DNA of 64,000 nucleotides, taken from NCBI GenBank assembly GCA_965231155.1, contig OZ246418.1:302850-366849 (forward strand), written 5' to 3'. The translations under genes were made by a program, and so were the position numbers. The DNA is from an uncultured Candidatus Saccharibacteria bacterium (GTDB taxonomy: Bacteria > Patescibacteriota > Minisyncoccia > UBA6257 > 2-01-FULL-56-20). The notes below the pieces were generated by a model, which was given only the letters and a program-made list of their open reading frames with translations, was not told where the DNA came from and searched no databases. Positions 2,111 through 46,623 of the stretch are shown here, one piece after another; the stretch's first letter is position 1, and every line of letters begins with the position of its first letter.

Positions 2111-2635
2111 ATGCAATTTCAAGTTCCACAGTTTATCGAGGGAGAGGATATGATCATCGGCCCACTGAGCCTTCGCCAGTTCGGCTATCTCTGTCTGGCT
2201 GGTGTATTTAGCGCCATCCTCTATCTCACTATCGATCTTATCCCCTGGATACTTTTCTCGGTCGTCCTTTTTGCGATTGCTCTCGTTATTGGTTTTGTAC
2301 AGATTCAGGGACAGAGCATGTTCCGAATTATTGGCGCGTATCTTCGTTACTTCTGGCGTCCTCAGCACTATGTCTGGCAAGCACAGAAGCAAACAGCGAG
2401 TCAAAAAGATGAAGAACTTCGACTACTTGCCCCTCAGGGTTCGCCCCTGGAAAAAGTAGTTCTTGGTCTCTTTCTTCGCCAAAGCTGGCGAGAACTCCAG
2501 ACTGGCGAGACTAATGCAGCAGGGGAGAAAACTCCTGATGAAAAGATTAAAGAAACGGCCAAACAAGAACAGTACAAGATCTTCCGTCGTTTGACCGGAG
2601 AAAGAAATGCGGCCCGAAGGATCGACTATCGTTAG
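2111..2635 (+). CDS. PrgI-family (VirB3-like) T4SS membrane protein
   Basis: N-terminus QVPQFIEGEDMIIGPLSLRQFGYLCLAG is followed by two TM helices and a YxRYFWRPQHYVW-type segment. This matches the conserved pattern of the PrgI/VirB3-analog family of Gram-positive T4SSs. It sits directly upstream of the VirB4 homolog. Confidence 0.6.
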   Translation: MQFQVPQFIEGEDMIIGPLSLRQFGYLCLAGVFSAILYLTIDLIPWILFSVVLFAIALVIGFVQIQGQSMFRIIGAYLRYFWRPQHYVWQAQKQTASQKDEELRLLAPQGSPLEKVVLGLFLRQSWRELQTGETNAAGEKTPDEKIKETAKQEQYKIFRRLTGERNAARRIDYR

Positions 2636-2695: not shown

Positions 2696-3454
2696 ATGCC
2701 TCTTGATGCTCCCGCAAATAGTTTAAACCTCCTGGCCATACAGGAGATTCATCATGACTGTCTCGTCCTTAAAAGTGGCGGCTTGGTTCAGGTGCTTATG
2801 GTTGGAGGTACCAACTTCTCTTTGAAGCCAGAAAGTGAGCAAAATCTTCTCACTGCCTCCTACCAGAGATTTCTTAATAGTCTTGGCTTCCCAATTCAGA
2901 TTATCGTACACTCTCGAAAAGTTAACATCCAAAAATATTTAAGCAATCTAGAGAAACGACAGAATGAGGAGGTGACGCCACTTCTCCAAAGTCAGATATC
3001 GGAGTACCGCCAGTTTGTTGAGTCTTTCGTCAAAGAGAATCCGATTATGACCAAATCTTTCTTCGTGGTCGTTCCTTATTACGGCGCTGGCATCCAAATT
3101 TCTAAAAAAACAAGCGACGAGGCGGGCAAGAAGAAAGAGAAGTCGAGTTCTCCATTCAGCTTCCTTCCTTTCTTCAAGAAAAAAGAAGTGGAGGAAAAAC
3201 CTGTAGATGAGACAGCTCCCCAGGCCGGCGCGAACGAACCAATAGCCGATCTCAGCAAAGAAGAAGAGCAGAACTTTGCCAAGAGCCTTCTCCAGATGAA
3301 ACAACGAGTCAATCACGTAGTCCAAGGACTCGAGGCCATTGGCTTGCCGGTAAAGATACTCAACGACGAACAACTGATTGAACTTCTTTATAACTTCTAC
3401 AATCCAGAAACAACTGAGAAACGAGAAATGTCACTACCCGCTCACGGCGCCTAA
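2696..3454 (+). CDS. VirB4/TrbE-like N-terminal domain, as a separate ORF or 5' fragment of a split or frameshifted virB4
   Basis: The segment LVLKSGGLVQVLMVGGTNFSLKPESEQNLLTASYQRFLNSLGFPIQIIV resembles the N-terminal domain of Gram-positive VirB4 ATPases (PrgJ/TraE type). The ORF ends 2 nt before the ATPase ORF, which is in a different frame. Confidence 0.45.
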   Translation: MPLDAPANSLNLLAIQEIHHDCLVLKSGGLVQVLMVGGTNFSLKPESEQNLLTASYQRFLNSLGFPIQIIVHSRKVNIQKYLSNLEKRQNEEVTPLLQSQISEYRQFVESFVKENPIMTKSFFVVVPYYGAGIQISKKTSDEAGKKKEKSSSPFSFLPFFKKKEVEEKPVDETAPQAGANEPIADLSKEEEQNFAKSLLQMKQRVNHVVQGLEAIGLPVKILNDEQLIELLYNFYNPETTEKREMSLPAHGA

Positions 3455-3456
3455 CT

Positions 3457-5178
3457 ATGTCTGACTATAATTTTGAACACATTAAGAAAATCATCAGCCC
3501 TTCGGGCGCTGAAGTGAGTTCTAATCATCTTAAACTTGGGAGTAAATATCTGAAGACAATGTTTATTCACTCCTACCCTCGCTATCTGGCGACCGGCTGG
3601 TTTGAAGAACTGATCAACCTCCCAAACATTTTTGATATTTCCATCTTCGTTACTCCAGTAGAAACTGGCATCGCTATAAAAAAACTAAGGAAAAAAGCCA
3701 CCCAGCTAGAAGCGGAGCTTAATGACCGGGAAGAAAAGGGATTGGTGCGTGATCCCGTGTTAGAGACCGCCCTCCAGGACGTAGACACGCTTCGAGACTC
3801 ATTACAACAATCGACAGAAAAATTCTTTCAGATTGGTGTCTATCTGACTATCTATGCCGAAAGTCTTGAGGAGCTTTCCCAACTTGAGAGTCAGATTACT
3901 GGCATGATGGAAGCAAAGCTTATCTATATGAAGCACGCTATCTTCCAACAACTTGAAGGATTCTTCTCGATACTGCCATTCGTGGATGATCAGATTAATA
4001 TCACGACGCCAATGAACTCGGCGCCAATCTCTTCCTTCTTTCCATTCGTATCTGAAGATCTCACCTCAGATACTGGCATTATGTATGGCGTGAATCGTCA
4101 CAACAACAACCTCGTTATCTTCGATCGCTTCACGTTAGAGAATGCCAACCAGGTGGTCTTCGCTAAGTCTGGTGGTGGTAAATCCTATTCGACAAAGCTG
4201 GAACTGATCCGCCAGCTAATGATGGGCGTGGAAATCATTGTTATTGATCCAGAAAACGAATACAAGAAACTGGCCGAGGCTTTCGGGGGAAGTTTCTTTA
4301 ATATCTCGCTCTCCTCCCACGAGCATATTAATCCTTTTGATATTCCGATTATTCCCCAGGGGGAGTCTCCCGAGGATGTTCTTCGATCGCACATCGTCAC
4401 GATGGCCGGCCTGATTAAGCTCATGCTCGGAGGCACCGTAACCGCCGAAGAGGATGCCATCATCGACCGAGCGGTCACTGAAACCTACGCCTCTCGAGAA
4501 ATTGTTCCGGGACGTGATTTCTCGAAAGCCGAGCCGCCTCTCTTGGGGGACATGGAAACGGTTCTTAGGAATATGGAGGGTGGTCGACCAATTGCCGAAC
4601 GACTGTATAAGTTCACTCAAGGAAGCTTTGCTGGGTTTATCAACCAACCGACAAACATTGATGTGAACAACCGCCTGATCATCTTTTCTATTCGAGACCT
4701 CGAAGAGGAACTCCGACCAATTGCCATGTATGTCGTTTTAAACTTCATCTGGAATATCGTCCGAGCAGAACTCAAGAAACGTATCATGATGATCGACGAA
4801 GCCTGGATTATGATGAAACACGAAGACAGCGCTTCGTTCTTGTTTGGTCTCGTGAAGCGGGGCAGAAAATATTATTTAGGCATCACCACCATCACACAAG
4901 ACGTCGAAGACTTCCTGCGTTCTCCCTACGGCCGGCCGATTATCACCAACTCCTCCCTCCAGCTCCTTCTGAAACAGGCGCCGGCTTCTATCGATATTGT
5001 CGGGAAAGCATTCGATCTCAATGAAACAGAAAAAAATCTCATCCTCGCTGCCGAAGTAGGTACCGGACTATTCTTTGCCGGCAAGCGTCATGTCGCCATC
5101 CAGATTATTCCTTCTTACTTTGAAGACAAAATCATCACTACCAACCCAAAGGCCCTCCTGGAGGACGAGAAAAAATAG
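3457..5178 (+). CDS. virB4: VirB4/TrbE/CagE-family T4SS ATPase (C-terminal ATPase portion)
   Basis: Walker A motif VFAKSGGGKSYSTK. Hydrophobic stretch ending in Asp (MMIDEAW) consistent with Walker B. Overall VirB4-like C-terminal domain architecture. Length 573 aa, versus ~800 aa for a full VirB4. Confidence 0.85.
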   Translation: MSDYNFEHIKKIISPSGAEVSSNHLKLGSKYLKTMFIHSYPRYLATGWFEELINLPNIFDISIFVTPVETGIAIKKLRKKATQLEAELNDREEKGLVRDPVLETALQDVDTLRDSLQQSTEKFFQIGVYLTIYAESLEELSQLESQITGMMEAKLIYMKHAIFQQLEGFFSILPFVDDQINITTPMNSAPISSFFPFVSEDLTSDTGIMYGVNRHNNNLVIFDRFTLENANQVVFAKSGGGKSYSTKLELIRQLMMGVEIIVIDPENEYKKLAEAFGGSFFNISLSSHEHINPFDIPIIPQGESPEDVLRSHIVTMAGLIKLMLGGTVTAEEDAIIDRAVTETYASREIVPGRDFSKAEPPLLGDMETVLRNMEGGRPIAERLYKFTQGSFAGFINQPTNIDVNNRLIIFSIRDLEEELRPIAMYVVLNFIWNIVRAELKKRIMMIDEAWIMMKHEDSASFLFGLVKRGRKYYLGITTITQDVEDFLRSPYGRPIITNSSLQLLLKQAPASIDIVGKAFDLNETEKNLILAAEVGTGLFFAGKRHVAIQIIPSYFEDKIITTNPKALLEDEKK

Positions 5179-5181: not shown

Positions 5182-6054
5182 ATGGAACGGGTTGAAAATG
5201 TAAGTTATCAGCTTGAAATAGATCAGATTAGAAACGCAACGGAGGCAGCTGCGGAGGAGCTTCGGGAGGAAATCCGGCGCAGCCATCATCCAACCGCCTT
5301 CTTTATCGTACTCTGTGTTGCGCTTCTAAAAGACTTCGGCGAAGGAGTTCTCACTCTTTTTATAATTGGTCTGATTGCTTCTCCTATCCTTGGTTTGGCT
5401 ATTGATCTTTTTTTGCGCCACCTAATGAAAAAATATGGGTGGTTTGAAACAAAAGCAGAGGTGGTGAAAAAAATTAAGTTCGTTTTTTACGGATTGAGTT
5501 TCTTCTTTGACAACCTTCCGGCTATTGGCGCCTTACCTCTTACTACTATTACCGTATTTTATATCCACCATCAAATCAAAAACCGAGGAAAAGAAGCTGT
5601 CGAAGAATTGGCGGAGTTGGAATATAGAATGTCTCAAGAGGTTGAGCGAGTTCGTGAGCAAATCGAGGAAGAAACACGAAGAAGGTCAGTGGAAGAGACG
5701 GAATTTCCTGAGGAGACAGAGTCTGAAACCTCAAGAAAAGAGCAAGCGACCCAATCCAGCGTAGCAATGAGACACCAAGCTGAAGAAACTGGAACGGAGA
5801 AACCAACGAACTCGAGAAATCAAACAGGAGAAAATACAGAAGAAACACCTGAAGAAATATTTATTCCCCAGGAAGTTCGAGATCCTCTTGGTAAACTGAA
5901 GCGAGACTACTTTGAGACATCACCAGACCAACCTCGCGAAACTCCAGAGAAAGATTCTTCCGAAAAAACTGGGAGTACTCCTCATAAGCCAAAATCAAAA
6001 ATGGACTTAACAGTAGAAAACGAAGACCGCTTCAGAAATAATAAAGCTGCCTAA
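5182..6054 (+). CDS. Polytopic membrane protein with a Glu-rich C-terminal tail; possible T4SS channel component (VirB6-like role is my inference)
   Basis: Several hydrophobic helices (FFIVLCVALL, LFIIGLIASPILGLAIDLFL, FVFYGLSFFF) followed by an acidic low-complexity C-terminus. The start is 4 nt after the virB4 stop. Confidence 0.35.
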   Translation: MERVENVSYQLEIDQIRNATEAAAEELREEIRRSHHPTAFFIVLCVALLKDFGEGVLTLFIIGLIASPILGLAIDLFLRHLMKKYGWFETKAEVVKKIKFVFYGLSFFFDNLPAIGALPLTTITVFYIHHQIKNRGKEAVEELAELEYRMSQEVERVREQIEEETRRRSVEETEFPEETESETSRKEQATQSSVAMRHQAEETGTEKPTNSRNQTGENTEETPEEIFIPQEVRDPLGKLKRDYFETSPDQPRETPEKDSSEKTGSTPHKPKSKMDLTVENEDRFRNNKAA

Positions 6055-6056: not shown

Positions 6057-7118
6057 ATGTCATCCTTCTTAACAATACTCATCACTCTGACTTTTTTATC
6101 TCCGTTGGTAGTATTTGGTGCAGACTACGAACTCCCCGCTCGTACCGCCTCAGAGACACTGACGCTACTGACTGGAGCCAGTCCAGCACGGGCGGTGAGT
6201 GATCTTTATAATTTTGCCTTAGGCATAGGTGCAATTGCTGCCTTTGGGTTAATCGTCTACTCAGCCCTCCAATACACCACCACAGATAGTCCGGGGAAGA
6301 GACAGGAGGCGCAGGGGAGAATCTTCCAGTCTCTATTAGGTTTGCTTCTTCTTATTGGTGCAACCTTGGTGTTGAGGTTTATTAATCCTGATCTTCCCAA
6401 CCTCAAGAATCCTGAAGCTCCGCAGTTGGAGGCGATACAGCTGGATACCACGTCTGAATCCTACTGGGTTCTCCAGAAATGCCCGGCGCTTCTACAAGAT
6501 TGCTCAAACGACCTCTCGTACGCTTTGGCTAGTGATCGTGGAGAATACAGTTCGAGAGTTTTGTGCGCTGAAGCAGGTAGTAGTACTATTGGTGGTACTG
6601 AACCAGGCTGGTGGCGATGTGTCGAGAGAACAAGGGATACTTCGGGCCTTGGCGGTACAGCGGGACCAGGATGCGAACCTATCCCTAACCCTGGAGTAGG
6701 CTCTGTCCAGTACATAGAGGAAAAGTTAGCAGGCACGCCCTATGCTGGTTGTTTCGGAGATAAGATTGCAAAAGCTTCAGGAATCATTGGCATAGAAAGT
6801 GGCGGGCAAGAAACTATTGAGAGTCGAACTGACAAGTGCAATCCAGCGCCCCCACGCAGTGTTTCTATTGGATTGTTTCAGATTAATCTCAGCGCTCACC
6901 ACCTTGGTTCTTTGCAATGTGCAAATAAGGCTATCCGTGGACAACTCCGAACAAGTCCAAACGACTGCACTATTATTGACGAGGTCCAGTATGGGCTCTG
7001 TCTGGCCGAGGCGAAAAAAGCCACACCAAATATTATTGAAGCTTGCAAGACTTTTAGAATGAAGAATAATTCCTTTCAGCTCTGGGGACCACAAACCAAG
7101 GAGAAGTGTGGAATTTAG
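6057..7118 (+). CDS. Secreted fusion protein with three parts: signal peptide, a two-helix pilin-like module, and a Cys-rich linker leading to a lytic-transglycosylase-like (lysozyme-fold) C-terminal domain
   Basis: N-terminal hydrophobic leader. A 104-aa module (YELPARTASE...APQLEAI) is identical to the paralog at 8319. The C-terminus carries an SLT-like motif pair, IGIESGGQETIESRTD and SIGLFQINLSAHH (compare ES...GLMQ of family-1 lytic transglycosylases). Confidence 0.5.
   Translation: MSSFLTILITLTFLSPLVVFGADYELPARTASETLTLLTGASPARAVSDLYNFALGIGAIAAFGLIVYSALQYTTTDSPGKRQEAQGRIFQSLLGLLLLIGATLVLRFINPDLPNLKNPEAPQLEAIQLDTTSESYWVLQKCPALLQDCSNDLSYALASDRGEYSSRVLCAEAGSSTIGGTEPGWWRCVERTRDTSGLGGTAGPGCEPIPNPGVGSVQYIEEKLAGTPYAGCFGDKIAKASGIIGIESGGQETIESRTDKCNPAPPRSVSIGLFQINLSAHHLGSLQCANKAIRGQLRTSPNDCTIIDEVQYGLCLAEAKKATPNIIEACKTFRMKNNSFQLWGPQTKEKCGI
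6126..6437 (+). repeat. Copy 1 of a 312-bp perfect direct repeat (pilin-like module coding sequence)
   Basis: 100% identical to 8373..8684 by direct comparison of the sequence. Flanking bases differ on both sides. Confidence 0.9.
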
Positions 7119-7150
7119 CTCTTATACCATTTGCGGTATAATACAGTGGT

Positions 7151-7639
7151 ATGAGAAAACAAGTTATCACTCTTGTGGTTATCATTGCCATTTGTCTTGG
7201 TCTCCTTTTTTTCATCATCCAGTTTTCTGAAAAACCAACTAATAACGTTTCTGATGTCGACGATCTCTCTGTTTTAGGAGATCGACCGAATCAAGACGTG
7301 CCAACCGGAAAGACCTTTATAATCCCTACAGAACAAGGCGATGTGATGGTAAAAAACTTTTTCAAAACTGGCCAACCCCTCAAAGGAGAGGAACCCGGGG
7401 TTCTCATAGAAGAAACTCCCGATTACACGATACTTTTTTATACGAAACAAAAAGAGGTGCTTATCTCCCTCACATCAAAACCAGTAATAACCGCGAAACA
7501 GAAAGCCGAAGAAGCCCTTCTTCGTCTTTTGGGCACATCCCAAGAAGATGCTTGCAAACTATTCTCTTCTGTCCGCACCACCGTCTATGTCGATCCAGAC
7601 TTGGCAGGTAGAGAACTTGGGTTAAGTTTCTGTAAATAA
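7151..7639 (+). CDS. Membrane-anchored hypothetical protein (N-terminal TM helix plus ~130-aa domain); possible VirB8-like position
   Basis: N-terminal helix ITLVVIIAICLGLLFFII. In the same strand and array as the T4SS genes. No motif recognised. Confidence 0.3.
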   Translation: MRKQVITLVVIIAICLGLLFFIIQFSEKPTNNVSDVDDLSVLGDRPNQDVPTGKTFIIPTEQGDVMVKNFFKTGQPLKGEEPGVLIEETPDYTILFYTKQKEVLISLTSKPVITAKQKAEEALLRLLGTSQEDACKLFSSVRTTVYVDPDLAGRELGLSFCK

Positions 7640-7644
7640 TAACC

Positions 7645-8322
7645 ATGAAAAAACTTCTCGCTATCTTCACTCTCGTCTTAGCTCTCTCCTTCCAAAGAAC
7701 CGAAGCTGCTGCACCAACCATGTTCCTGACCTGGAGAACGAACACCTATACTCCGAAAGACTATCCCGGAAAGGCCTTGGTTACTCCCGGATCGAATGTC
7801 ATTTTTTCTATAGAAGTACTGCAAGATGGAAAAATTCTCCCTCTAAAGACCATGATGATCCGTTGGTATGTGCAAGGACATCTTTATAAGAGTGGCCTTG
7901 GTCTTCAGTCATTTAATACATCCGCCAAGGTTCTCTCTGGAAATGATCTGAAAGTACGCGTAGAGATTCCGGACCTCCCAGGAGGCCCTCTTTCTAAAAC
8001 TATGCTTCTTCGAGTAACCGATCCAAAAGTGGTTATCGAAGCACCCTTCCCTGGTCTTATAACTCCAATCAAAGATTTCTTCGTCAAAGCAACACCCTAC
8101 TTTTTTTCCGTCCCTTCTGAAAAAAATCTGTCCTATCGCTGGACGGTCAATGGTAATGTCTTGCCCGAAGGATCGGATCCCCAACTAGTTTCTATAACCG
8201 CCAAGAATCTTCGTCAGTCAACCATTCGAACGCTTTCTTTCCAGATATCAGTAAAGAATCCTAATGAGGACTTCGACCAAACCGATGCCATTAAAACAAT
8301 AACCATTAAGGACACGCCATGA
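7645..8322 (+). CDS. Secreted hypothetical protein
   Basis: Signal peptide MKKLLAIFTLVLALSFQRTEAAAP. Its stop overlaps the start of the next gene (ATGA), suggesting translational coupling. Confidence 0.35.
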   Translation: MKKLLAIFTLVLALSFQRTEAAAPTMFLTWRTNTYTPKDYPGKALVTPGSNVIFSIEVLQDGKILPLKTMMIRWYVQGHLYKSGLGLQSFNTSAKVLSGNDLKVRVEIPDLPGGPLSKTMLLRVTDPKVVIEAPFPGLITPIKDFFVKATPYFFSVPSEKNLSYRWTVNGNVLPEGSDPQLVSITAKNLRQSTIRTLSFQISVKNPNEDFDQTDAIKTITIKDTP

Positions 8323-9350
8323 TTTCTACCTTACTTTCCTTTTTGGGCGCGACAAGGGTCTTTGCAGCTCCTTACGAACTCCCCGCTCGTACCGCCTCAG
8401 AGACACTGACGCTACTGACTGGAGCCAGTCCAGCACGGGCGGTGAGTGATCTTTATAATTTTGCCTTAGGCATAGGTGCAATTGCTGCCTTTGGGTTAAT
8501 CGTCTACTCAGCCCTCCAATACACCACCACAGATAGTCCGGGGAAGAGACAGGAGGCGCAGGGGAGAATCTTCCAGTCTCTATTAGGTTTGCTTCTTCTT
8601 ATTGGTGCAACCTTGGTGTTGAGGTTTATTAATCCTGATCTTCCCAACCTCAAGAATCCTGAAGCTCCGCAGTTGGAGGCGATAGGGGTAGCGAGTAGTA
8701 CCGCAGAGGGAGAAACCTCTTATTGGACAATTCAAGTCTGCCCCAAAAGAGAAGATTGTAGTGAAGAAGACTACGAAGACCTCGCCCCTAGAGATGAGGG
8801 CCATTATACCGACAGAAACGCGTGCCTAGGAATGAATACCGCCATTGGCGAAGAACCGGCTCGCTGGCGATGTGTCGAGAGATTTACTGGCCAACCAAGC
8901 GCCCTGGTCCCTATCGATGACAGTGTGGCTCAGCAAAGAGAGGAGGCGGTTCGCGCTCAACTTCGAGGATATGGAATTGAGGTCAACAACAAGGCCTGCG
9001 TCCCTTATACTGCCCGCTACCAGGACGTACCTGGAAGTTGCACAAATGTTGGAGGCCTACCAAACGGAGTTCTTTCAAAACTAGGAGTTCTTAATCCGCA
9101 GTTTCCAATAATCATTACTGGGGGGTCTGAAGCCGGGCATCTCTCTCACGGAGTAGGGGAGCCTTCGGTGGATATAAAACCTGCTCGTCGTAGCTCGCCA
9201 CCATCGGCAGGTTGGTGTGAACTTGAGAGGTTGGTTAAAGAATTAGGGATTGATGAGGCTCGGTCACAGTTTGAGTTACGCGGGGTGCCGCTCGATGCGG
9301 GCTGTAGAGCTAATCCGCCACCAGACCACTATCATGTACGCTTTGATTAA
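8319..9350 (+). CDS. Secreted fusion protein with three parts: signal peptide, a two-helix pilin-like module, and a Cys-rich linker leading to an M15/LAS-type zinc peptidase-like cell-wall hydrolase domain
   Basis: Same 104-aa module as 6057..7118. The C-terminus has SHGVGEPSVDI (compare SxHxxGxAxD) and DHYHVRF (compare EPWHxRY), the two zinc-ligand motifs of VanY/M15 D-Ala-D-Ala carboxypeptidase-like enzymes. Confidence 0.5.
   Translation: MISTLLSFLGATRVFAAPYELPARTASETLTLLTGASPARAVSDLYNFALGIGAIAAFGLIVYSALQYTTTDSPGKRQEAQGRIFQSLLGLLLLIGATLVLRFINPDLPNLKNPEAPQLEAIGVASSTAEGETSYWTIQVCPKREDCSEEDYEDLAPRDEGHYTDRNACLGMNTAIGEEPARWRCVERFTGQPSALVPIDDSVAQQREEAVRAQLRGYGIEVNNKACVPYTARYQDVPGSCTNVGGLPNGVLSKLGVLNPQFPIIITGGSEAGHLSHGVGEPSVDIKPARRSSPPSAGWCELERLVKELGIDEARSQFELRGVPLDAGCRANPPPDHYHVRFD
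8373..8684 (+). repeat. Copy 2 of the 312-bp perfect direct repeat
   Basis: Identical to 6126..6437. Confidence 0.9.
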
Positions 9351-9362: not shown

Positions 9363-10613
9363 ATGCTAAAACGTCTTTCATTCTTCCTTTCTATATTCTT
9401 GATTATTGGACTGGTTATCGCGATCGGCTGGTTTATCCGCTACCGAAATGCCTCACCCTCTCCAGATGCTACGACTACTCAGCCAGATGACATTCTTCCG
9501 CCTACTGGTCAAAATATCCGACCAGCCACCTCATCGCAGAACAGAAGCTCGAGCTCTCCTTCGATAATCGCTCCAGGAGAAAAACCGTTTGGTATGGTTG
9601 CCGACCAAGAAGTTGCCGCCTACTACCCCTACGCAGACGGCTCAGTCGCTTTCATCCAACCAAGCGGACAGGTGATAAAGATAAGTGGAACCGAGGGAGT
9701 AGTCTTAAGTTCTTTAAATATCTCCGACCTCAGTTATGCTGCCTTTTCTTATGACGGAAAAAGGATTGTGGCCGCTTTTGGAAATCCATTAAACCGCCAG
9801 TTAAGCGTTTTTGATTTAGAAAAAAAATCTTGGAATCCAATATTTGCTCGACCCCTTTCTGCACCTCTTTGGGCGCCTCGCGACTATCGAATCACATTTC
9901 TTACCGCAAATACAAATAATGACCAGATCATTACTGTTGTAGACACTCAACCAAATACCCCAAAAACACAGGAAATCCTCTCTCTTTCCGGACAGGACCT
10001 TGTTCTCTCCTGGAAAAATGATAATGAAATCTTTGTCTCGGAAAAAACAAGCGTCTTTTCTTTAGGAAGTCTTTTTTCTTTGGATATTAGGAAAAATACG
10101 CTTTCCTCACTTATTAAAGACTGGCCTGGCCTAGACTTTTTATGGGACACCACCTCTCAGGCTGGTGTCGCCTTCCAAGCAAATAAGAATAGCGTAGGAG
10201 GAACGATGAGTCTCCTGGGAGAGACGGGGATTGTCGCAAGAAAATTTTCCTTCACCACACTCCCTAAAGAAAAATGTTTCTTTGGTCCCGAGCCTACTCC
10301 ATTAACAACTACGAGTACATCCTCTTCGAGGACTCCACAGAAAAACCCTTCACCAAGAACAAGCCTCCTCTTCTGTGCTGTTCCGAAGAATGCTGACAGC
10401 TTCCTTTCTTCCTATCTACCGGACGCCTATTTCCAAAAAGAAATTATGACCGACGATAATTTGGTCGGAATCAATCTGGAAACGGGAGCGGTAACGGATC
10501 TTTCAAAACCAATAAATGAAGTGGTTGATGCAACTGATCTAAAAGCGAGCCGCACCTACATCTACTTTATAAACAGATATAACAACAAGCTCTACCGACT
10601 TATTCGCGCCTAA
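9363..10613 (+). CDS. Membrane-anchored hypothetical protein with a Ser/Thr-rich linker and a beta-rich (possibly propeller-like) ectodomain
   Basis: N-terminal TM helix FFLSIFLIIGLVIAIGWFI. Last gene of the plus-strand array. No catalytic motif. Confidence 0.35.
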   Translation: MLKRLSFFLSIFLIIGLVIAIGWFIRYRNASPSPDATTTQPDDILPPTGQNIRPATSSQNRSSSSPSIIAPGEKPFGMVADQEVAAYYPYADGSVAFIQPSGQVIKISGTEGVVLSSLNISDLSYAAFSYDGKRIVAAFGNPLNRQLSVFDLEKKSWNPIFARPLSAPLWAPRDYRITFLTANTNNDQIITVVDTQPNTPKTQEILSLSGQDLVLSWKNDNEIFVSEKTSVFSLGSLFSLDIRKNTLSSLIKDWPGLDFLWDTTSQAGVAFQANKNSVGGTMSLLGETGIVARKFSFTTLPKEKCFFGPEPTPLTTTSTSSSRTPQKNPSPRTSLLFCAVPKNADSFLSSYLPDAYFQKEIMTDDNLVGINLETGAVTDLSKPINEVVDATDLKASRTYIYFINRYNNKLYRLIRA

Positions 10614-42434: not shown

Positions 42435-43721
42435 ATGCAATTTTCTAAAAGACAGATCTTTTTAGTTATCTCTCTGATCGCGGGTATTGGAATAACAATT
42501 TTTCTTTTGTATTCCAGCATAAAAACTGAGGATACTGGCCCTGGTTCTATTAACGCAGCGAAAAGGACAAATAAGTTGGTGGTGTGGGGAGTGGATGATT
42601 CGAGCGCTTTCGCCACGATTAAAAAGAATTTTGAAGCTACCTATAAAGACGCGTCTGTAAATTATGTGCAACTTGATGAGGCGGTTATTCAGAGTCAGTT
42701 AGTGCAGGCACTGGCCAACAATCAAGGTCCGGATGTAATTATGATTAAAAACCGGACGCTGGCGAGACAGAAAAACTTTTTAGCACCAGCACCGGCCACG
42801 AAGATGAGCCTATCTCGATTCCGAGGTCTTTTTCCTACCGTAGCCGAACAGGATTTCACCGATTCAGGTCGTCAGATTTATGCTCTGCCTTTGTCTATTG
42901 ATACCCTGGCCTTAATTTACAACAAAGATTTTTTTGATCAGGCGAGAATTATTCAGCCTCCAGCGACGTGGACGGAGTTGGCGGATATCGTTCCTCAGTT
43001 GGTAAAACCGGGGAAGGGAGGACAGTTTGATCGATCAGCCGTTGCTCTTGGTGGTTCGAATAAGTCGATGACGAATGCCGGTGATGTCCTGACACTTCTT
43101 TTCATGCAGAGCGGCGCACGACTTGCTTCGGGTGAATTGGGAGTTGATGGACCTGGTCGTAAGGCTCTCAATTTCTATCTTCAGTTCTCTAATCCTCGAT
43201 CGTTGGCCTATACCTGGAATGATCTCCAGTCTAATGATCTTCAGAGTTTCGCTAACCTTCGAGCTGCTATGGTTATTGCGTACAAGAGACAGATCCCTTT
43301 TATCACCAATCAGAATAGTTTTGTGAACTATGGGATCGCATCAGTTCCTCAGTTGAGTACAGACAGAGTTGATTATGCAAATAGTTGGGGGCTGGCCGTT
43401 ACTCGAAATAGTCGCTTTTCGGCGAGAGCTTGGGATTTTGTAGTCTATGCAACAACGGTACAGCAGAATGCTCAGGCGTATAGCCAGGCGACAAAACTTC
43501 CTCCAGCGCTTCGAGAGCTTTTGGCCACCAACTATAACGATCCTGAACTTGGTGTGTTTGCTCAGCAGGCCCTCACCGCTCGTTCTTGGAACTCTCCCGA
43601 CGAAAAGCAAACGAGAGATATCTTCTCCGGCATGGTTGATTCTTATCTGACTGGACAGATGGATCAGGAGTCAGCGCTTGGTCGAGCACAAAATATACTG
43701 TCTCAAATATTTAGAAAATAA
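42435..43721 (+). CDS. ABC transporter substrate-binding protein (family 1, sugar-type)
   Basis: N-terminal TM/signal anchor, then KLVVWGVDDS...YVQLDEAVIQSQL, typical of extracellular solute-binding proteins. Confidence 0.75.
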   Translation: MQFSKRQIFLVISLIAGIGITIFLLYSSIKTEDTGPGSINAAKRTNKLVVWGVDDSSAFATIKKNFEATYKDASVNYVQLDEAVIQSQLVQALANNQGPDVIMIKNRTLARQKNFLAPAPATKMSLSRFRGLFPTVAEQDFTDSGRQIYALPLSIDTLALIYNKDFFDQARIIQPPATWTELADIVPQLVKPGKGGQFDRSAVALGGSNKSMTNAGDVLTLLFMQSGARLASGELGVDGPGRKALNFYLQFSNPRSLAYTWNDLQSNDLQSFANLRAAMVIAYKRQIPFITNQNSFVNYGIASVPQLSTDRVDYANSWGLAVTRNSRFSARAWDFVVYATTVQQNAQAYSQATKLPPALRELLATNYNDPELGVFAQQALTARSWNSPDEKQTRDIFSGMVDSYLTGQMDQESALGRAQNILSQIFRK

Positions 43722-43725
43722 GACT

Positions 43726-44238
43726 ATGTTCTTGAAGCCATACTTTCTTTTTGTCGGAGTTCTCTTGGTTTTTGTTCTAACTCTTTCCATTCCTCAGGCG
43801 GCGCTTGCTGCAGGCGCGAATCAGTGCAAAGTAGAAACTCCCCAGTTCTTACCAGGCGGATACTGGGGTCAGAATCCGCCACTCCTTCCTTGTGGAATAG
43901 GTCCGATTGAAACACGAGTGGATTGTTTGGAGTGTGGCCTTTGTGGTCTTCTGATGCTGGGGCAGCGAATAATCTACCTCATGTTGAGCTTTCTTTTCTT
44001 CGTGGTGGCACCTATTCGATTTATTTGGGGAGGGTTTCTTATTCTTGTCTCTCGTGGATCAAGCGAAACCGTCGCGCAGGGGAGAAAGATGATATATTAC
44101 ACCGTGATCGGCCTAATGATTGGTCTGGGAGCGTTTCTCATCGTCCAGACATTTCTCTGGCTTCTTGGTAATCTGGGTGGCGATCAGATCGGCTGGCCCG
44201 ATATAAAATGTCAACGGAACATTCGCCCATTGAGTTGA
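43726..44238 (+). CDS. Pilin-like paralog 1 (VirB2/TrbC-like T4SS pilin candidate)
   Basis: Signal peptide, Cys-rich N-terminal region, and a C-terminal two-helix module (LLMLGQRIIYLMLSFLFFVV...SRGSSETVAQGRKMIYYTVIGLMIGLGAFLIV) with the same pattern as paralogs 2-8. Start set at the internal Met (MFLKPYF). Confidence 0.6.
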   Translation: MFLKPYFLFVGVLLVFVLTLSIPQAALAAGANQCKVETPQFLPGGYWGQNPPLLPCGIGPIETRVDCLECGLCGLLMLGQRIIYLMLSFLFFVVAPIRFIWGGFLILVSRGSSETVAQGRKMIYYTVIGLMIGLGAFLIVQTFLWLLGNLGGDQIGWPDIKCQRNIRPLS

Positions 44239-44272
44239 GGGTGTTTTATTCTCTGAAAATTGATTACAATGT

Positions 44273-44677
44273 GTGCATAAAGAAAATATGAAAAGTTTAC
44301 TGCCTGGAGCCGGATTAGTTTTTCTTCTGATAGTAGTCGCAATGCCACTGCACGTTCTTGGAGTGGGACCAGGAGATCCCGGCGATGGCACGATTAGTCT
44401 CGCCGATCCCTTTAACTGTAGTACTGCTACTTCTGATGCCCCTTGCTTGATTCAGGTTCTAGGAGGAATCATCGGTCGCTTCAGTCAGATCGTGGTGCCT
44501 GTTCTTGTGGCAATGATTTTGTACGGAGGATTTCAGATGATGGCTGCCCGGGGCAGTACTGAGAAGTATGGTGCAGGAAAGAAGACTATCACTTACGCCG
44601 TCATTGGTTTTGCGGTCATCCTGGTCTCTCAGGGGATTGGATATATCTTGATTGATCTCCTTACGAGGCGAGCCTGA
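44273..44677 (+). CDS. Pilin-like paralog 2
   Basis: Signal peptide. C-terminal module VLGGIIGRFSQIVVPVLVAMILYGGFQMMAARGSTEKYGAGKKTITYAVIGFAVILV. Confidence 0.6.
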   Translation: MHKENMKSLLPGAGLVFLLIVVAMPLHVLGVGPGDPGDGTISLADPFNCSTATSDAPCLIQVLGGIIGRFSQIVVPVLVAMILYGGFQMMAARGSTEKYGAGKKTITYAVIGFAVILVSQGIGYILIDLLTRRA

Positions 44678-44760
44678 GGATTTTTGATTTTGCTTCTTGA
44701 TATGCTATACTCTTTAAACATATAAAAGGTCGGTATTTCCTTATATTATTTTCAATTGTA

Positions 44761-45144
44761 ATGACAAAGAACTTTAAAATTACCTTAGGAGCAGCTTCGA
44801 CAGCTTTGGTGTCTTTGGTGCCAATGGCTACTTCGTTTGCCTTCGTGACCGCTACTTTGCCAACGTTTACTCAGGTTGAGGCGCCAAAGGGTGGTAACGA
44901 GATTACTTCCTTCAATGGCATCTTGGCTATCTTAGTAACCATTTTGGGTTACGTCCAAGCTTTGTTCTGGATTGCCGCTGTGTTTACTGGTCTCTATGCC
45001 GCTTTCATGTACCTCACTGCTGGTGGTGAAGGAGAAAAAATCTCCAAAGCTAACCAGATGTTGATCTACACTGTTGTCGCGGTTATCGTGGCTGTTATCG
45101 CTTACTCGATCCCGGCGTTCGTGAAGACGACTATCCAGTCATAG
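44761..45144 (+). CDS. Pilin-like paralog 3
   Basis: C-terminal module YVQALFWIAAVFTGLYAAFMYLTAGGEGEKISKANQMLIYTVVAVIVAVIAYSIP. Confidence 0.6.
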   Translation: MTKNFKITLGAASTALVSLVPMATSFAFVTATLPTFTQVEAPKGGNEITSFNGILAILVTILGYVQALFWIAAVFTGLYAAFMYLTAGGEGEKISKANQMLIYTVVAVIVAVIAYSIPAFVKTTIQS

Positions 45145-45166
45145 TATCTTTAGAGATTATCTCTAC

Positions 45167-45195
45167 AAAAAAGACCCTTTTTGGGTCTTTTTTGT
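45167..45195 (+). terminator. Rho-independent terminator after pilin paralog 3
   Basis: aaaaaagaccc-ttttt-gggtct-tttttg. Confidence 0.6.
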
Positions 45196-45317
45196 TTCCA
45201 CTTTTTGATTCACAACGAAGCTCCTAACTGGCCTCCCATTATGCCTCTTGGATATGGGAGGGCAGTTAGGAGCGAGTCACTTGTTGCTTTTTTTGTCTTA
45301 CGGTAGAATAAATACTA

Positions 45318-45665
45318 ATGAGAACTTATGCGTCTATTCTGTTTTTCATAATTCTTGGTGCGCCGTTAGTTTCTTTTGCAGTTGCAGTACCCACTTGTGG
45401 TCCTAGTACTTCTCCTCTCTGCAATGTGGATGATGTCATTAGCTTAATTACCGCATTGGTGAATTATATGCAGGTCGTGTTTTGGATTTTGGCGGCAGCC
45501 TCAGGGCTCTATGCAGGGATACTGTATCTTCGGAGTGGTGGTAAGCCAGAAATGTTAAAGAGTGCCGAGAAACAACTTATCTATACAGTAGTGGCGGTCG
45601 CTGTAGCCGTCATGGCATACGGCATTCCTAAGCTTGTCGATAGTTTCTTACGTCTTCGCGCTTAG
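45318..45665 (+). CDS. Pilin-like paralog 4
   Basis: C-terminal module YMQVVFWILAAASGLYAGILYLRSGGKPEMLKSAEKQLIYTVVAVAVAVMAYGIP. Confidence 0.6.
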   Translation: MRTYASILFFIILGAPLVSFAVAVPTCGPSTSPLCNVDDVISLITALVNYMQVVFWILAAASGLYAGILYLRSGGKPEMLKSAEKQLIYTVVAVAVAVMAYGIPKLVDSFLRLRA

Positions 45666-45677
45666 CTTGATCTTTTT

Positions 45678-46229
45678 ATGAACCTACAAGAGGTCATCCA
45701 GGTAAAGAAAGTGTCCTCGGTAGTATCTTTCCCGATTGTTTTTTCTTTCATTTTTTTTATAATCTTTTCTTCCGGAGCTTTTCCAGTTGCCAGAGCAGAC
45801 TATCGTTGCGAAATTGCCGGTCCAAGCTTTGGCAATGTGTATGGGAGTGCAATTGATTGCTCAACGAGCTGTGGTGGTGTATGTGCGTCAGTTCCTGGTG
45901 GGGGAGGATCTTCGGGTGGTTCCGGGTTCACTCCGAGATATCCAACCTCTCGGTTGCCAGAAGGTGGTAATGCACCCGTAACAAATGCCGGACAAGTTTT
46001 GGATGTCGTAGTAAATATGTTGAACTTTGCGCAGGCCGTGTTTTGGGTGATGGCCGCCGGCTTTGGTCTCTATGGCGCCTACCTCTATCTTTTCTCGCAG
46101 GGAAACAAGGAGAGTGTTACTCAGGCCAAGAATATGATGGTGTATACTGTAGTAGCAGTGATGATTGCCATAATTTCGTACGGTATCCCTGCAATTATTA
46201 ATAATTTTGTGGCAATTAGTACTTCTTAA
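45678..46229 (+). CDS. Pilin-like paralog 5
   Basis: Cys-rich N-terminal region (ADYRCEIAG...CSTSCGGVCAS) plus C-terminal module FAQAVFWVMAAGFGLYGAYLYLFSQGNKESVTQAKNMMVYTVVAVMIAIISYGIP. Confidence 0.6.
   Translation: MNLQEVIQVKKVSSVVSFPIVFSFIFFIIFSSGAFPVARADYRCEIAGPSFGNVYGSAIDCSTSCGGVCASVPGGGGSSGGSGFTPRYPTSRLPEGGNAPVTNAGQVLDVVVNMLNFAQAVFWVMAAGFGLYGAYLYLFSQGNKESVTQAKNMMVYTVVAVMIAIISYGIPAIINNFVAISTS
46053..46136 (+). repeat. 84-bp identical tract, copy 1 (inside pilin paralog 5)
   Basis: Identical to 46444..46527 by direct comparison; encodes AAGFGLYGAYLYLFSQGNKESVTQAKNM. Confidence 0.85.
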
Positions 46230-46230
46230 T

Positions 46231-46620
46231 ATGAAAAATTATTATAAATTAGTCGGTTTCTTGGGAGGAGTTGTTTCTTTGGGTGGTGTTTTCGTGAGTG
46301 CCACAACGGTTCAAGCAGTTTGGAATCAGTATCCAACGTTTAGCGATCCACCGAGAGGGAATGCGCCGATTACCAGCGTCAATGATTCTTTGAATATTAT
46401 TGTGAATATTATCGACTTTGCGCAGGTTGCGTTTTTCATTCTCGCCGCCGGCTTTGGTCTCTATGGCGCCTACCTCTATCTTTTCTCGCAGGGAAACAAG
46501 GAGAGTGTTACTCAGGCCAAGAATATGTTTATTTATATGGCCGTTGCCATCTTTGTGGCTATTATTGCCTATGGAATCCCTTCTATCGTTGTAAACTTTG
46601 TAGACATAAGTATTTCTTAA
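46231..46620 (+). CDS. Pilin-like paralog 6
   Basis: The track ORF starts at 46207 and overlaps paralog 5, so the start is taken at MKNYYKLV just after that gene's stop. The C-terminal module is nearly identical to paralog 5. Confidence 0.55.
   Translation: MKNYYKLVGFLGGVVSLGGVFVSATTVQAVWNQYPTFSDPPRGNAPITSVNDSLNIIVNIIDFAQVAFFILAAGFGLYGAYLYLFSQGNKESVTQAKNMFIYMAVAIFVAIIAYGIPSIVVNFVDISIS
46444..46527 (+). repeat. 84-bp identical tract, copy 2 (inside pilin paralog 6)
   Basis: Identical to 46053..46136. Confidence 0.85.
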
Positions 46621-46623
46621 ATC

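What the first reader, a model, noticed from the sequence alone, without database searches (positions are those of the whole stretch)
6057..9350. Two paralogous secreted proteins share a 312-bp, 100% identical pilin-like module fused to different peptidoglycan-hydrolase-like domains
nt 6126..6437 and 8373..8684 are identical over 312 bp (104 codons). The bases immediately outside differ, and the signal peptides are unrelated. The shared module encodes two hydrophobic helices separated by a short polar loop (FALGIGAIAAFGLIVYSAL, then TDSPGKRQEAQGR, then IFQSLLGLLLLIGATLVL), the topology of VirB2/TrbC-type pilins. Downstream, both proteins have related but diverged Cys-rich linkers (SYW.(L/I)Q.CP...DCS...WRCVER), then entirely different C-terminal domains. 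One has ES...GLFQI lytic-transglycosylase-like motifs. The other has SHGVGEPSVDI / DHYHVRF, reminiscent of the two zinc-ligand motifs of M15 (VanY-type) peptidases. A pilin-like anchor carrying wall-degrading enzymes suggests VirB1-like hole-punching activities delivered on or with the pilus. The perfect identity of the module against diverged linkers implies recent gene conversion.
Basis: seen in the sequence. Interest (0 to 1): 0.85.

Follow-up and report, generated by a model that had tools for sequence, protein, structure and literature searches.

The report
Pilin-anchored cell-wall enzyme pair, gene-converted
Two neighbouring genes of an ultra-small (Patescibacteria) bacterium's type IV secretion cluster each fuse the same pilin-like membrane module to a different cell-wall-cutting enzyme, and repeated gene conversion keeps the shared module identical; this may explain where the system's apparently missing wall-breaching enzymes are.

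Summary
Window 6126-6437 and 8373-8684 are identical over 312 nt, while the flanks are only about 46% identical. Both genes (6057-7118 'A', 8319-9350 'B') sit just downstream of a PrgI/VirB4 type IV secretion (T4SS) cluster next to dnaA in a Patescibacteria-type genome.

- **Shared module:** it passes Pfam T4SS_pilin (VirB2-like).

Three syntenic relatives show concerted evolution. Their pilin modules group by genome (100%, 82% and 65% nt identity) rather than by enzyme type. One relative has an independent 560-nt exact tract, and two separate assemblies break exactly at its edge.

The pilin-LAS fusion is widespread: 95 of 137 family representatives carry it. I did not find it described in the literature.

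Best reading: a pilin-tethered glycosidase-plus-peptidase kit for breaching the wall, serving the T4SS. Whether the enzymes ride on a pilus, or act on the cell's own wall or the host's, is untested. This is a new variant of a known kind.

The parts
2111..2635 (+). PrgI / VirB3-like T4SS membrane protein
   Evidence: Pfam PF12666 PrgI, E 1.7e-7, above cutoff. Same position in the syntenic loci L003, L014, L017 and L018.
2696..3454 (+). Separate ORF encoding the TraC-like/TrsD-like N-terminal part of VirB4
   Evidence: NCBIfam VirB4_plasma N-part E 9e-12 and TrsD E 4e-9. The orthologues carry PF26593 TraC-like and are also separate 250-253-aa ORFs in every relative, so the split is genuine and not a frameshift.
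3457..5178 (+). VirB4-type T4SS ATPase (CD1110 / MPF-FATA-like)
   Evidence: NCBIfam conju_CD1110 E 8e-116, 388 bits, above cutoff 325. Pfam P-loop_TraG, AAA_10 and DUF87. It is 92.5-94% aa identical in L014, L017 and L018.
5182..6054 (+). Conserved cluster gene g5 (290 aa; membrane segments plus an acidic low-complexity tail); function unknown
   Evidence: No family hit. Syntenic 255-300-aa gene in all relatives, but only 39-44% identical.
6057..7118 (+). Gene A: leader + VirB2-like pilin module + 4-Cys linker + lysozyme/SLT_3-like domain (353 aa)
6057..6122 (+). A leader peptide (predicted signal-peptidase site V-F-G|A; inferred only)
   Evidence: Hydrophobic N-terminus. The alignment with relatives shows AxA-type sites just before the conserved xxLPxR mature N-terminus. 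Cleavage itself was not tested.
6126..6437 (+). Copy 1 of the 312-nt exact tract = pilin module (two TM helices, basic loop TDSPGKRQEAQGR)
6438..6656 (+). A linker: small 4-Cys beta/alpha domain (SYW..C..C..C..WRC); function unknown
   Evidence: Cys 142, 149, 170, 188. AF2 strands and helix at pLDDT 50-70. Only 37% aa identical to B's linker. Absent from L017 A.
6663..7115 (+). A catalytic domain: lysozyme-like / lytic-transglycosylase-like (SLT_3 family)
7151..7639 (+). g7: 162-aa exported/anchored protein; function unknown; conserved position between A and B
   Evidence: No family hit. Syntenic in L003, L014, L017 and L018 at 31-49% identity.
7645..8322 (+). g8: 225-aa secreted protein; function unknown; its stop overlaps B's start
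   Evidence: No family hit. Syntenic in all relatives and in L001/L002.
8319..9350 (+). Gene B: leader + the same pilin module + 4-Cys linker + LAS-type zinc-peptidase domain (343 aa)
8373..8684 (+). Copy 2 of the 312-nt exact tract = pilin module
   Evidence: PF18895 residues 40-104. pLDDT 84-97.
8685..8909 (+). B linker: 4-Cys domain paralogous to A's
8931..9347 (+). B catalytic domain: LAS (Hedgehog/DD-peptidase fold) putative zinc peptidase; motifs TGGSEAGH274-x2-H277-x7-D285 and H337-Y-H339
9363..10613 (+). g10: 416-aa membrane-anchored protein ending the cluster; function unknown
   Evidence: No family hit. Syntenic 409-413-aa gene in relatives at 52-56% identity.
43678..47738 (+). Separate tandem array of 8 small stand-alone VirB2-like pilin genes (115-198 aa), the likely bulk pilins of the same system
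   Evidence: Local pilin-module HMM hits. PF18895 hits range from E 3e-10 to 0.03 for 6 of the genes. ORFs. It contains the window's only other long exact repeat, 46053-46136 = 46444-46527.

Best explanation
A and B are the dedicated peptidoglycan-cutting pair of a Patescibacteria type IV secretion system. One is a lysozyme/lytic-transglycosylase-like glycan cutter (A). The other is a LAS-type zinc peptidase that would cut peptide stems or cross-links (B). Each is built onto the same VirB2-like pilin module.

Shown here:
- The domain identities and the conserved catalytic-type residues.
- The position immediately downstream of PrgI and VirB4.
- The wide recurrence of the fusion.
- Homogenisation of the module by gene conversion.

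Inferred:
- Each protein is exported by Sec and its leader is cleaved.
- The two helices sit as an N-out/C-out hairpin with the basic loop in the cytoplasm.
- This places a disulfide-bonded stalk and the enzyme outside the membrane.
- Because the anchor is a pilin, both enzymes are handled by the same VirB4/VirB6 pilin platform as the stand-alone pilins encoded at 43.7-47.7 kb. Glycan strands and peptide links would then be cut where the T4SS or pilus has to cross a wall: the cell's own wall, and possibly that of the host cell it lives on.

Recurrent non-reciprocal recombination between the two direct copies, 2.2 kb apart, keeps the modules matched to each other. Meanwhile the module diverges quickly between lineages.
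For: - **Repeat:** exact over 312 nt with 46% identical flanks.
- **Pilin module:** PF18895 above cutoff in both proteins.
- **Context:** the PrgI, TraC-like and VirB4 (388 bits) genes lie directly upstream. DnaA, DnaN, YidC and Jag lie directly downstream. Published Patescibacteria T4SS loci show the same layout (PMC12102498).
- **A is lysozyme-like:**
- **B has the LAS fold with invariant H/D/H:**
- **Precedent:** in the cultivated Saccharibacterium S. epibionticum, the two genes beside virB4 are annotated 'Lysozyme-like' (SEML1_0006) and 'Hedgehog/DD-peptidase' (SEML1_0007). Both are essential for epibiotic growth (supplement of PMC10633639; PMC12102498). The same enzyme pair is therefore already tied to this T4SS.
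- **The fusion is common:** 95 of 137 top representatives of the LAS family carry PF18895 and 14 carry TrbC/VirB2. In other Patescibacteria, pilin-LAS genes head arrays of small pilins.
- **Extracytoplasmic location:** A has 12 Cys and B has 8 (even numbers), and the loop is positively charged.
- **Gene conversion:**
  - 0 of 80 synonymous sites differ between A and B, while the module has dS of about 1.1 against the closest orthologue.
  - Modules cluster by genome in all four syntenic genomes, at 100, 100, 82 and 65% nt identity within genomes against 57-66% between them.
  - L014 has an independent 560-nt exact tract with different boundaries.
  - Two independent assemblies end exactly k-1 = 30 nt into that tract.
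- **The organism makes peptidoglycan:** a class A PBP lies at 15152-17308.
Against: - No enzymatic activity, export, processing or pilus association has been tested.
- A itself scores below the Pfam cutoff for SLT_3.
- B has Ala at position 327, where at least 90% of the family has Glu, although Asp326 is adjacent. Its catalytic competence is therefore uncertain.
- B matches no curated peptidase model. Its nearest solved fold is hedgehog, which acts mainly as a ligand.
- In L017 the two modules have drifted to 65% nt identity, so identity is not obligatory.
- Read support for this particular assembly could not be examined.
Confidence: 0.7

Rival explanations
1. Enzyme-tipped pilus used as a weapon or feeding tool. 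A and B are true minor pilins that co-polymerise with each other and with the array pilins. They decorate or cap an extracellular T4SS pilus and digest the wall of the host bacterium rather than the cell's own wall. Identical modules are favoured because both subunits must fit the same filament lattice.
For: - The pilin module passes PF18895.
- Pilin-LAS genes commonly sit at the head of small-pilin arrays, and stand-alone pilins exist in this genome.
- The extracytoplasmic cluster proteins evolve far faster (31-56% identity) than VirB4 (92-94%), as expected for surface or host-contact parts.
- The Patescibacteria T4SS and its pilins are essential for epibiotic growth, and reviewers speculate that a pilus conduit reaches the host (PMC10633639; PMC12857230).
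Against: - No pilus has been seen.
- A globular load of about 230 aa on every subunit would be hard to pack, so at best they are minor subunits.
- Nothing here distinguishes the host wall from the cell's own wall.
- L017 tolerates 65% nt / 68% aa module identity.
Confidence: 0.2
2. Pro-protein model. The pilin module and the enzyme are separated by proteolysis after export, as C-terminal peptides are trimmed from TrbC-type propilins. A and B would then each yield the same mature pilin plus a free, locally released hydrolase.
For: - The conversion tract ends at a defined point (…PQLEAI|) between the module and the linker.
- C-terminal processing of TrbC/VirB2 propilins is established biology (from my own knowledge, not tested here).
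- Identical modules would give one homogeneous pilin species.
Against: - No cleavage motif is conserved at the junction across relatives.
- In L014 the identical tract runs on through the whole linker.
- The genome already encodes 8 stand-alone pilins.
Confidence: 0.1
3. The perfect identity is an assembly or polishing artefact, or simply a very recent duplication or domain swap, rather than gene conversion.
For: - The reads of this assembly could not be inspected.
- Polishing with multi-mapping reads can erase small differences between near-identical repeats.
Against: - Both copies have distinct flanks and intact reading frames.
- The A/B gene pair and its two intervening genes are syntenic in four genomes, so the duplication is old.
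- Even so, the modules group by genome.
- An independent genome has a 560-nt exact tract. Two independent read sets break exactly at its boundary.
- Intermediate states (82% and 65%) exist.
- A polishing artefact could only remove a few differences. It could not create an island of 100% identity inside 46% identity.
Confidence: 0.05
4. A and B are ordinary housekeeping autolysins with a two-helix membrane anchor, unrelated to secretion.
For: Cell-wall hydrolases with membrane anchors are common. The helical-hairpin fold is generic.
Against: - PF18895 scores above cutoff.
- Strict synteny with PrgI and VirB4 in every relative.
- Pilin-LAS genes sit beside small pilins in distant Patescibacteria.
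- The same enzyme pair flanks virB4 and is essential in S. epibionticum.
Confidence: 0.05

Closest known systems
Patescibacteria (CPR) T4SS with VirB2-like pilin arrays (Wang et al. 2023, PMC10633639; Quinonero-Coronel et al. 2025, PMC12102498)
   Same: - Chromosomal PrgI, TrsD/TraC-like and VirB4 cluster next to dnaA, with no relaxase or coupling protein seen in the cluster.
- PF18895 pilins, including a tandem array.
- A lysozyme-like protein and a Hedgehog/DD-peptidase protein beside virB4.
   Different: - Here the two hydrolase domains are each fused to a pilin module. In S. epibionticum they are annotated within larger proteins of about 640 and 1110 aa.
- Published arrays show pilin paralogues averaging 25% identity, with a maximum of 54%. 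Here the two modules are 100% identical.
- I found no published mention of pilin-hydrolase fusions or of gene conversion.
VirB1-type and Gram-positive T4SS peptidoglycan hydrolases (PrgK of pCF10, TraG of pIP501, CwlT of ICEBs1)
   Same: A glycan-cutting domain plus a peptidase domain, encoded in the T4SS cluster and needed to cross a thick wall. PrgK also includes a LAS (LytM) domain. This comes from my own knowledge and from the references listed.
   Different: - Those enzymes combine the domains in one polypeptide with a plain TM anchor, and the peptidase is usually CHAP or NlpC/P60.
- Here the activities are on two proteins, each on a VirB2-like module, and the peptidase has a hedgehog-like LAS fold.
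- The CONJScan VirB1 profiles were not run.
FlgJ (flagellar rod cap fused to muramidase) and VgrG3-type 'evolved' T6SS spikes
   Same: A structural assembly module is covalently fused to a peptidoglycan hydrolase, so the enzyme acts where the machine meets a wall. FlgJ acts on the cell's own wall and VgrG3 on the target's wall. This is an analogy from my own knowledge.
   Different: Unrelated folds and machines. No homology is claimed and nothing was tested here.
LAS metallopeptidases: M15 VanX/VanY and D-Ala-D-Ala carboxypeptidases, M23 lysostaphin/LytM, Hedgehog N-domain
   Different: - No significant sequence match to any Pfam M15 or M23 model.
- The spacing is H-x7-D.
- A conserved TGGxE motif and conserved cysteines are present.
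- The usual Glu is missing at its column in this particular protein.
Concerted evolution of pilin or surface-protein paralogues by gene conversion (for example Neisseria pilE/pilS; the tandem VirB2 paralogues of Bartonella and Anaplasma cited)
   Same: Non-reciprocal recombination between nearby paralogous pilin sequences, with sharp tract boundaries.
   Different: In those systems conversion creates diversity (antigenic variation). Here it erases diversity between two paralogues that carry different enzymes, while the module diverges between lineages.

Membership tests
VirB2/TrbC-like T4SS pilin (Pfam PF18895 T4SS_pilin) | Profile match above the curated gathering score | tested here: met
   30.7 bits (A) and 30.6 bits (B) against a cutoff of 26.6. 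There is also a weak NCBIfam Mbov_0395 pilin-like hit, below cutoff.
VirB2/TrbC-like T4SS pilin (Pfam PF18895 T4SS_pilin) | Leader peptide followed by two hydrophobic helices joined by a short basic loop | tested here: met
   Hydropathy scan. AF2 helices with pLDDT 84-97 in B. The loop is TDSPGKRQEAQGR.
VirB2/TrbC-like T4SS pilin (Pfam PF18895 T4SS_pilin) | Encoded with VirB4 and VirB3-type genes | tested here: met
   PrgI, TraC-like and VirB4 lie 1-4 kb upstream. The synteny is conserved.
VirB2/TrbC-like T4SS pilin (Pfam PF18895 T4SS_pilin) | Small stand-alone subunit (about 70-130 aa mature) that polymerises into a pilus | tested here: not met
   A is 353 aa and B is 343 aa, each with a C-terminal enzyme-bearing extension of about 230 aa. 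Polymerisation cannot be tested with these tools. They are therefore pilin-module fusion proteins, not canonical pilins.
Lysozyme-like / lytic transglycosylase (Pfam SLT_3 PF18896; SLT PF01464) | Profile match above the gathering score | tested here: inconclusive
   A itself scores 14-17 bits against a cutoff of 27. All 7 aligned homologues hit SLT_3 (best E 1.4e-8) and 3 hit SLT. Those homologues match A at E 1e-17 to 1e-75.
Lysozyme-like / lytic transglycosylase (Pfam SLT_3 PF18896; SLT PF01464) | Catalytic Glu in an E-S motif, followed by a GLxQ motif | tested here: met
   E247-S248 and G272-L-F-Q-I-N-L are invariant in the 7-sequence alignment.
Lysozyme-like / lytic transglycosylase (Pfam SLT_3 PF18896; SLT PF01464) | Lysozyme-like fold | tested here: met
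Lysozyme-like / lytic transglycosylase (Pfam SLT_3 PF18896; SLT PF01464) | Cleaves peptidoglycan glycan strands (hydrolase versus lytic transglycosylase chemistry) | not testable with these tools
   Requires enzyme assays and muropeptide analysis.
LAS zinc metallopeptidases (M15 VanY/VanX-type; Hedgehog/DD-peptidase fold) | Hedgehog/DD-peptidase fold | tested here: met
LAS zinc metallopeptidases (M15 VanY/VanX-type; Hedgehog/DD-peptidase fold) | Zinc-ligand pattern His-x(n)-Asp plus a C-terminal His-x-His | tested here: met
   H274 and D285 are invariant in both alignments. H277 and H337 are invariant across 23 sequences and at least 90% conserved across 137. The profile aligns H277 and D285 to the hedgehog LHYEGRAVD stretch, whose His and Asp I recall as the zinc ligands. 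H339 is present in B, while some family members have Asp there.
LAS zinc metallopeptidases (M15 VanY/VanX-type; Hedgehog/DD-peptidase fold) | Catalytic Glu preceding the HxH motif | tested here: inconclusive
   The column is Glu in at least 90% of 137 family members, but Ala327 in this protein, with Asp326 adjacent. The closest orthologue has Glu.
LAS zinc metallopeptidases (M15 VanY/VanX-type; Hedgehog/DD-peptidase fold) | Sequence membership of a curated M15 or M23 family model | tested here: not met
   No Pfam hit at E<=10 for the domain or its homologues. None of 137 representatives hits a peptidase model. PDB sequence hits reach only E about 0.7-1. It should therefore be filed under the LAS fold or superfamily, not as a VanY/M15 member.
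T4SS-associated wall hydrolase (VirB1 functional class) | [quoted passage not shown] | tested here: met
   A and B are the 2nd and 5th genes after virB4, in one co-directional run with short (1-60 nt) or overlapping gaps between the cluster genes. The same enzyme classes flank virB4 in S. epibionticum.
T4SS-associated wall hydrolase (VirB1 functional class) | Match to VirB1/TrsG/CD419 profiles (CONJScan) | not tested
   Those profiles are not available in the tools used.
Concerted evolution by gene conversion | Paralogous segments are more alike within a genome than orthologous segments between genomes, while the flanking domains follow orthology | tested here: met
   Module nt identity between A and B within a genome is 100, 100, 82 and 65%, against 57-66% between genomes. 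UPGMA pairs A with B in all four genomes. The catalytic domains group by type.
Concerted evolution by gene conversion | Sharp tract boundaries, and independent tracts in different lineages | tested here: met
   The tract is 312 nt here and 560 nt in L014, with different end points. dS is 0 within the genome and about 1.1 to the nearest orthologue.

The most novel reading that the evidence does not exclude
Patescibacteria build a T4SS pilus in a single-membrane cell. Its subunits include enzyme-bearing pilins: a glycan cutter and a LAS peptidase mounted on identical pilin modules. These co-polymerise as a drill head that opens, or feeds on, the host bacterium's wall. Gene conversion keeps the two enzyme carriers lattice-compatible while the module races ahead between lineages under host or phage pressure. 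This would also explain why most Patescibacteria with VirB2-like genes appear to lack VirB1: the hydrolases are hidden inside 'pilin' genes.
Probability: 0.2. Interest if true: 0.85.

Novelty: new variant of a known kind. Interest (0 to 1): 0.62.

Why it matters
The Patescibacteria T4SS is the first T4SS shown to be essential for its owner's growth, and its function is unknown (PMC10633639; PMC12857230).

A recent survey concluded that most Patescibacteria with VirB2-like pilins lack a VirB1 hydrolase (PMC12102498). The present analysis suggests the hydrolases are often there, but fused to the pilin-like module and invisible to the curated (Pfam) models tried here. Of 137 representatives of a family with about 2,500 clusters and no Pfam model, 95 carry the pilin domain.

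This gives concrete things to test:
- Two small enzymes with predicted catalytic residues.
- A predicted topology.
- A prediction that the pilin module is the targeting or assembly element.

The pattern of homogenisation within genomes against rapid divergence between them (VirB4 about 93% identical, module 51-64%) marks the module as an interaction surface under unusual selection.

Tried and rejected
- **phmmer of whole A and B against PDB sequences:** only spurious Arl2 hits to the helical region for A, and nothing for B.
- **Profile of A's catalytic domain against PDB sequences:** no hits.
- **Pfam on B's C-terminal domain and its homologues, up to E 10:** nothing.
- **The search for related loci with the 23-sequence alignment:** failed for lack of a conserved stretch. 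The 4-sequence alignment worked, but did not recover the window's own genome, which is not among the species representatives.
- **tblastn of the LAS domain against plasmid and phage collections:** no match. There is thus no sign of a mobile-element or endolysin origin at that sensitivity.
- **Comparison of the L020 A-fragment with the L001 B gene (different samples):** about 89% nt identity in the module. Because the contigs may come from different strains, this says nothing about within-genome identity.
- **VirB4 'frameshift' idea:** rejected, because the split into a 250-aa ORF and a 573-aa ORF is conserved in all relatives.
- **The 612-aa ORF at 212-2050 as VirB6:** not supported. The TrbL_3-positive gene of relatives lies one gene further upstream, outside this window.

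Full report
**Observation**

The two tracts 6126-6437 and 8373-8684 are identical at all 312 positions. Identity stops at the very next base on both sides. Only one other exact repeat of 25 nt or more exists in the 64-kb window (84 nt at 46053/46444).

Both tracts lie in frame in two intact ORFs: A (6057-7118, 353 aa) and B (8319-9350, 343 aa). Around the tract the two genes are far apart. The leaders are 46% nt identical, and the Cys-rich linkers are 46.7% nt / 36.9% aa identical. The C-terminal domains are unrelated. The feature is real and far beyond chance.

**Genomic setting**

The genes form one co-directional, tightly packed run:
- a PrgI/VirB3-like gene (2111-2635);
- a TraC-like/TrsD-like ORF (2696-3454);
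- a VirB4 ATPase of the CD1110 / Gram-positive type (3457-5178, 388 bits);
- an unknown membrane protein (5182-6054);
- A;
- two unknown exported proteins (7151-7639 and 7645-8322);
- B;
- a 416-aa unknown protein (9363-10613).

Immediately beyond lie jag (R3H), yidC, rnpA, dnaA, dnaN and a class A PBP. The proteins occur on one 808-kb NCBI contig. Close VirB4 relatives are labelled 'Patescibacteria group bacterium'. All related loci recovered from species-representative genomes are Patescibacteria.

This layout matches the published description of the Patescibacteria T4SS: chromosomal, next to dnaA, of Gram-positive (MPF-FATA) ancestry, usually lacking a relaxase, and accompanied by VirB2-like PF18895 pilins (PMC12102498).

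**The shared module**

Both proteins exceed the gathering score of Pfam PF18895 T4SS_pilin. The module has a leader, two hydrophobic helices and a short basic loop. AF2 models it as a confident helical hairpin, with pLDDT 84-97 in B.

The proteins are not canonical pilins. Each carries about 230 further residues. The window also holds a separate tandem array of eight small stand-alone pilin-like genes at 43678-47738. These are better candidates for bulk pilus subunits.

**A's C-terminal domain**

**B's C-terminal domain**

No Pfam model matches it or its relatives. A profile built from 22 homologues finds 2,547 cluster representatives (1,752 at E<=1e-10) in a 1.8-billion-protein library. Most are 260-340 aa long with the domain at the C-terminus.

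Invariant or near-invariant residues are G269, E271, H274, H277, D285 and H337. The only PDB sequences the profile touches are hedgehog N-domains. There the family motif TGG-sE-gH…sH-x7-D aligns with TEGwDEDGHH…LHYEGRAVD, whose His and Asp I recall from the literature as two of the Shh zinc ligands (hhalign E 3.6e-4, using a Shh sequence I supplied from memory).

Membership of the VanY/M15 sequence families is not demonstrated.

One caveat applies. The Glu that precedes the HxH motif in at least 90% of the family is Ala327 in this protein, with Asp326 next to it.

**Link to known biology**

In the only genetically studied Patescibacterium, S. epibionticum ML1, the two genes beside virB4 are annotated by structure as 'Lysozyme-like (x2) + cysteine proteinase' (SEML1_0006) and 'Hedgehog/DD-peptidase' (SEML1_0007). 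Both are essential for epibiotic growth (supplement of PMC10633639; PMC12102498). The same two enzyme classes thus accompany this T4SS across a wide phylogenetic distance. Here they are mounted on pilin modules.

The fusion is common:
- 95 of 137 top representatives of the LAS family carry PF18895, and 14 carry TrbC/VirB2.
- In Saccharibacteria, Paceibacterota, Azambacteria and Kaiserbacteria MAGs, most of the pilin-LAS genes recovered are followed directly by one or two small pilin genes.
- Some SLT_3 proteins also carry PF18895 (P0007).

I found no paper describing these fusions. The 2025 survey inferred that the putative pilus does not need a VirB1 homologue because most genomes lack one. 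Hydrolase domains hidden inside 'pilin' genes offer an alternative reading.

**Gene conversion**

Four syntenic genomes with VirB4 92.5-94% identical to the window's (L014, L017 and L018/L003, plus the window itself) all have the arrangement A, two genes, B. The duplication therefore predates their divergence.

Yet the pilin modules pair by genome, not by enzyme type. Identity between A and B within a genome is 100% (window), 100% (L014), 82% (L018) and 65% (L017) at the nucleotide level. Between genomes it is 57-66%.

In the window, 0 of 80 synonymous sites differ between A and B. The same module shows dS of about 1.1 (dN 0.08) against its closest orthologue, L001.

L014 has its own exact tract of 560 nt. 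It starts inside the leader and runs through the linker. It is thus a separate event with different end points. Two independent short-read assemblies of that species (L015 and L016) both terminate 30 nt (k-1) into this tract. A de Bruijn graph does exactly this at a true repeat with two different left flanks, so this is read-level support from other data sets.

The 84-nt exact repeat inside the stand-alone pilin array (ORFs) suggests the same process acts there.

An assembly or polishing artefact cannot create a 100% island between flanks of 46% identity. At most it could remove a few residual differences. I could not inspect the reads of this assembly.

**Evolutionary rate**

Between these genomes VirB4 is about 93% identical, PrgI about 70% and the TraC-like ORF about 75%. 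A is only 42-46% identical, B 35-42%, and the three unknown exported proteins 31-51%. Module identity between genomes is 51-64% aa. The extracytoplasmic parts of the system therefore evolve several times faster than its motor, while the two enzyme carriers are repeatedly re-synchronised with each other.

**Mechanism (inferred)**

Sec export and leader cleavage would leave an N-out/C-out hairpin. Alignment suggests the site VF[G/A]|A, two codons before the tract. The Lys/Arg-rich loop would face the cytoplasm, and a disulfide-bonded stalk plus the enzyme would sit outside (A has 12 Cys and B has 8).

As pilin-like substrates, both proteins would be gathered at the VirB4/VirB6 platform together with the array pilins. 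This would concentrate a glycan cutter and a peptide cutter where the apparatus must cross a wall. Gram-positive conjugation systems (PrgK, TraG of pIP501, CwlT) achieve this with multidomain hydrolases (my own knowledge, and references listed).

Two questions remain open. One is whether the enzymes stay in the membrane, ride on a pilus, or are clipped off. The other is whether the target is the cell's own wall or the host's. I rate the general statement at about 0.7. Within it, the specific pilus-borne, host-directed version is at about 0.2.

**Verdict**

- The system belongs to a known kind (the Patescibacteria T4SS with VirB2-like pilins and adjacent wall hydrolases).
- The pilin-hydrolase fusion pair and its concerted evolution appear undescribed, and they give a testable handle on an essential system whose function is unknown.

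Noticed in passing
window 43678-47738: A tandem array of eight small (115-198 aa) stand-alone VirB2-like pilin genes lies about 34 kb from the VirB4 cluster, directly after gyrA and a solute-binding protein gene. Several have Cys-rich N-terminal regions.
   Followed up: partly
window 46053-46136 and 46444-46527: The window's only other long exact repeat (84 nt) lies in two adjacent array pilins (ORFs 45678-46229 and 46207-46620). It encodes AAGFGLYGAYLYLFSQGNKESVTQAKNM in both. This is probably a short gene-conversion tract like the one in A and B.
   Followed up: partly
window 2696-3454 and 3457-5178: VirB4 is encoded as two ORFs in different frames: a TraC-like/TrsD-like N-domain of about 250 aa and a 573-aa ATPase. 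The split is conserved in every relative examined, so it is not a frameshift error.
   Followed up: yes
window 2111-10613 versus L014, L017, L018: There is an extreme rate disparity within one operon. VirB4 is 92.5-94% identical between genomes, while the exported proteins downstream (g5, A, g7, g8, B) are only 31-51% identical and g10 is 52-56%.
   Followed up: partly
L015 and L016 (ends), relative to L014 9648-10207: Two independent Logan assemblies of the L014 species stop exactly 30 nt into the 560-nt A/B repeat. L019 and L020 also end inside gene A, and P0002 (JGI) starts inside the pilin module. Short-read contigs of this clade seem to break systematically at this repeat, so the fusion genes are probably under-represented in MAGs.
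   Followed up: partly
L017 8161-9078: In this relative the A-type protein (305 aa) lacks the 4-Cys linker domain entirely, while its B-type partner keeps it. The linker is therefore dispensable for the SLT_3 enzyme.
   Followed up: no
window 9297-9299 (B residue 327): B has Ala where at least 90% of the LAS-like family, including its nearest orthologue, has Glu. Asp326 is adjacent. This may be an altered or weakened catalytic site.
   Followed up: partly
window 6438-6656 and 8685-8909: The 4-Cys linker (SYW..C..C..C..WRC, predicted small beta/alpha domain) matches no family and its function is unknown. It could be a spacer or a wall-binding element.
   Followed up: no
window 10623-17308: The T4SS cluster directly adjoins the replication-origin gene set (jag, yidC, rnpA, dnaA, dnaN), which is followed by a class A penicillin-binding protein. 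This agrees with the reported origin-proximal placement of Patescibacteria T4SS loci, and shows that the organism makes peptidoglycan.
   Followed up: yes
window 212-2050: A 612-aa ORF upstream of PrgI has no family hit. In relatives a 588-736-aa gene holds this position, and the TrbL_3 (VirB6-like) gene lies one further upstream, which would be beyond the start of this window.
   Followed up: partly
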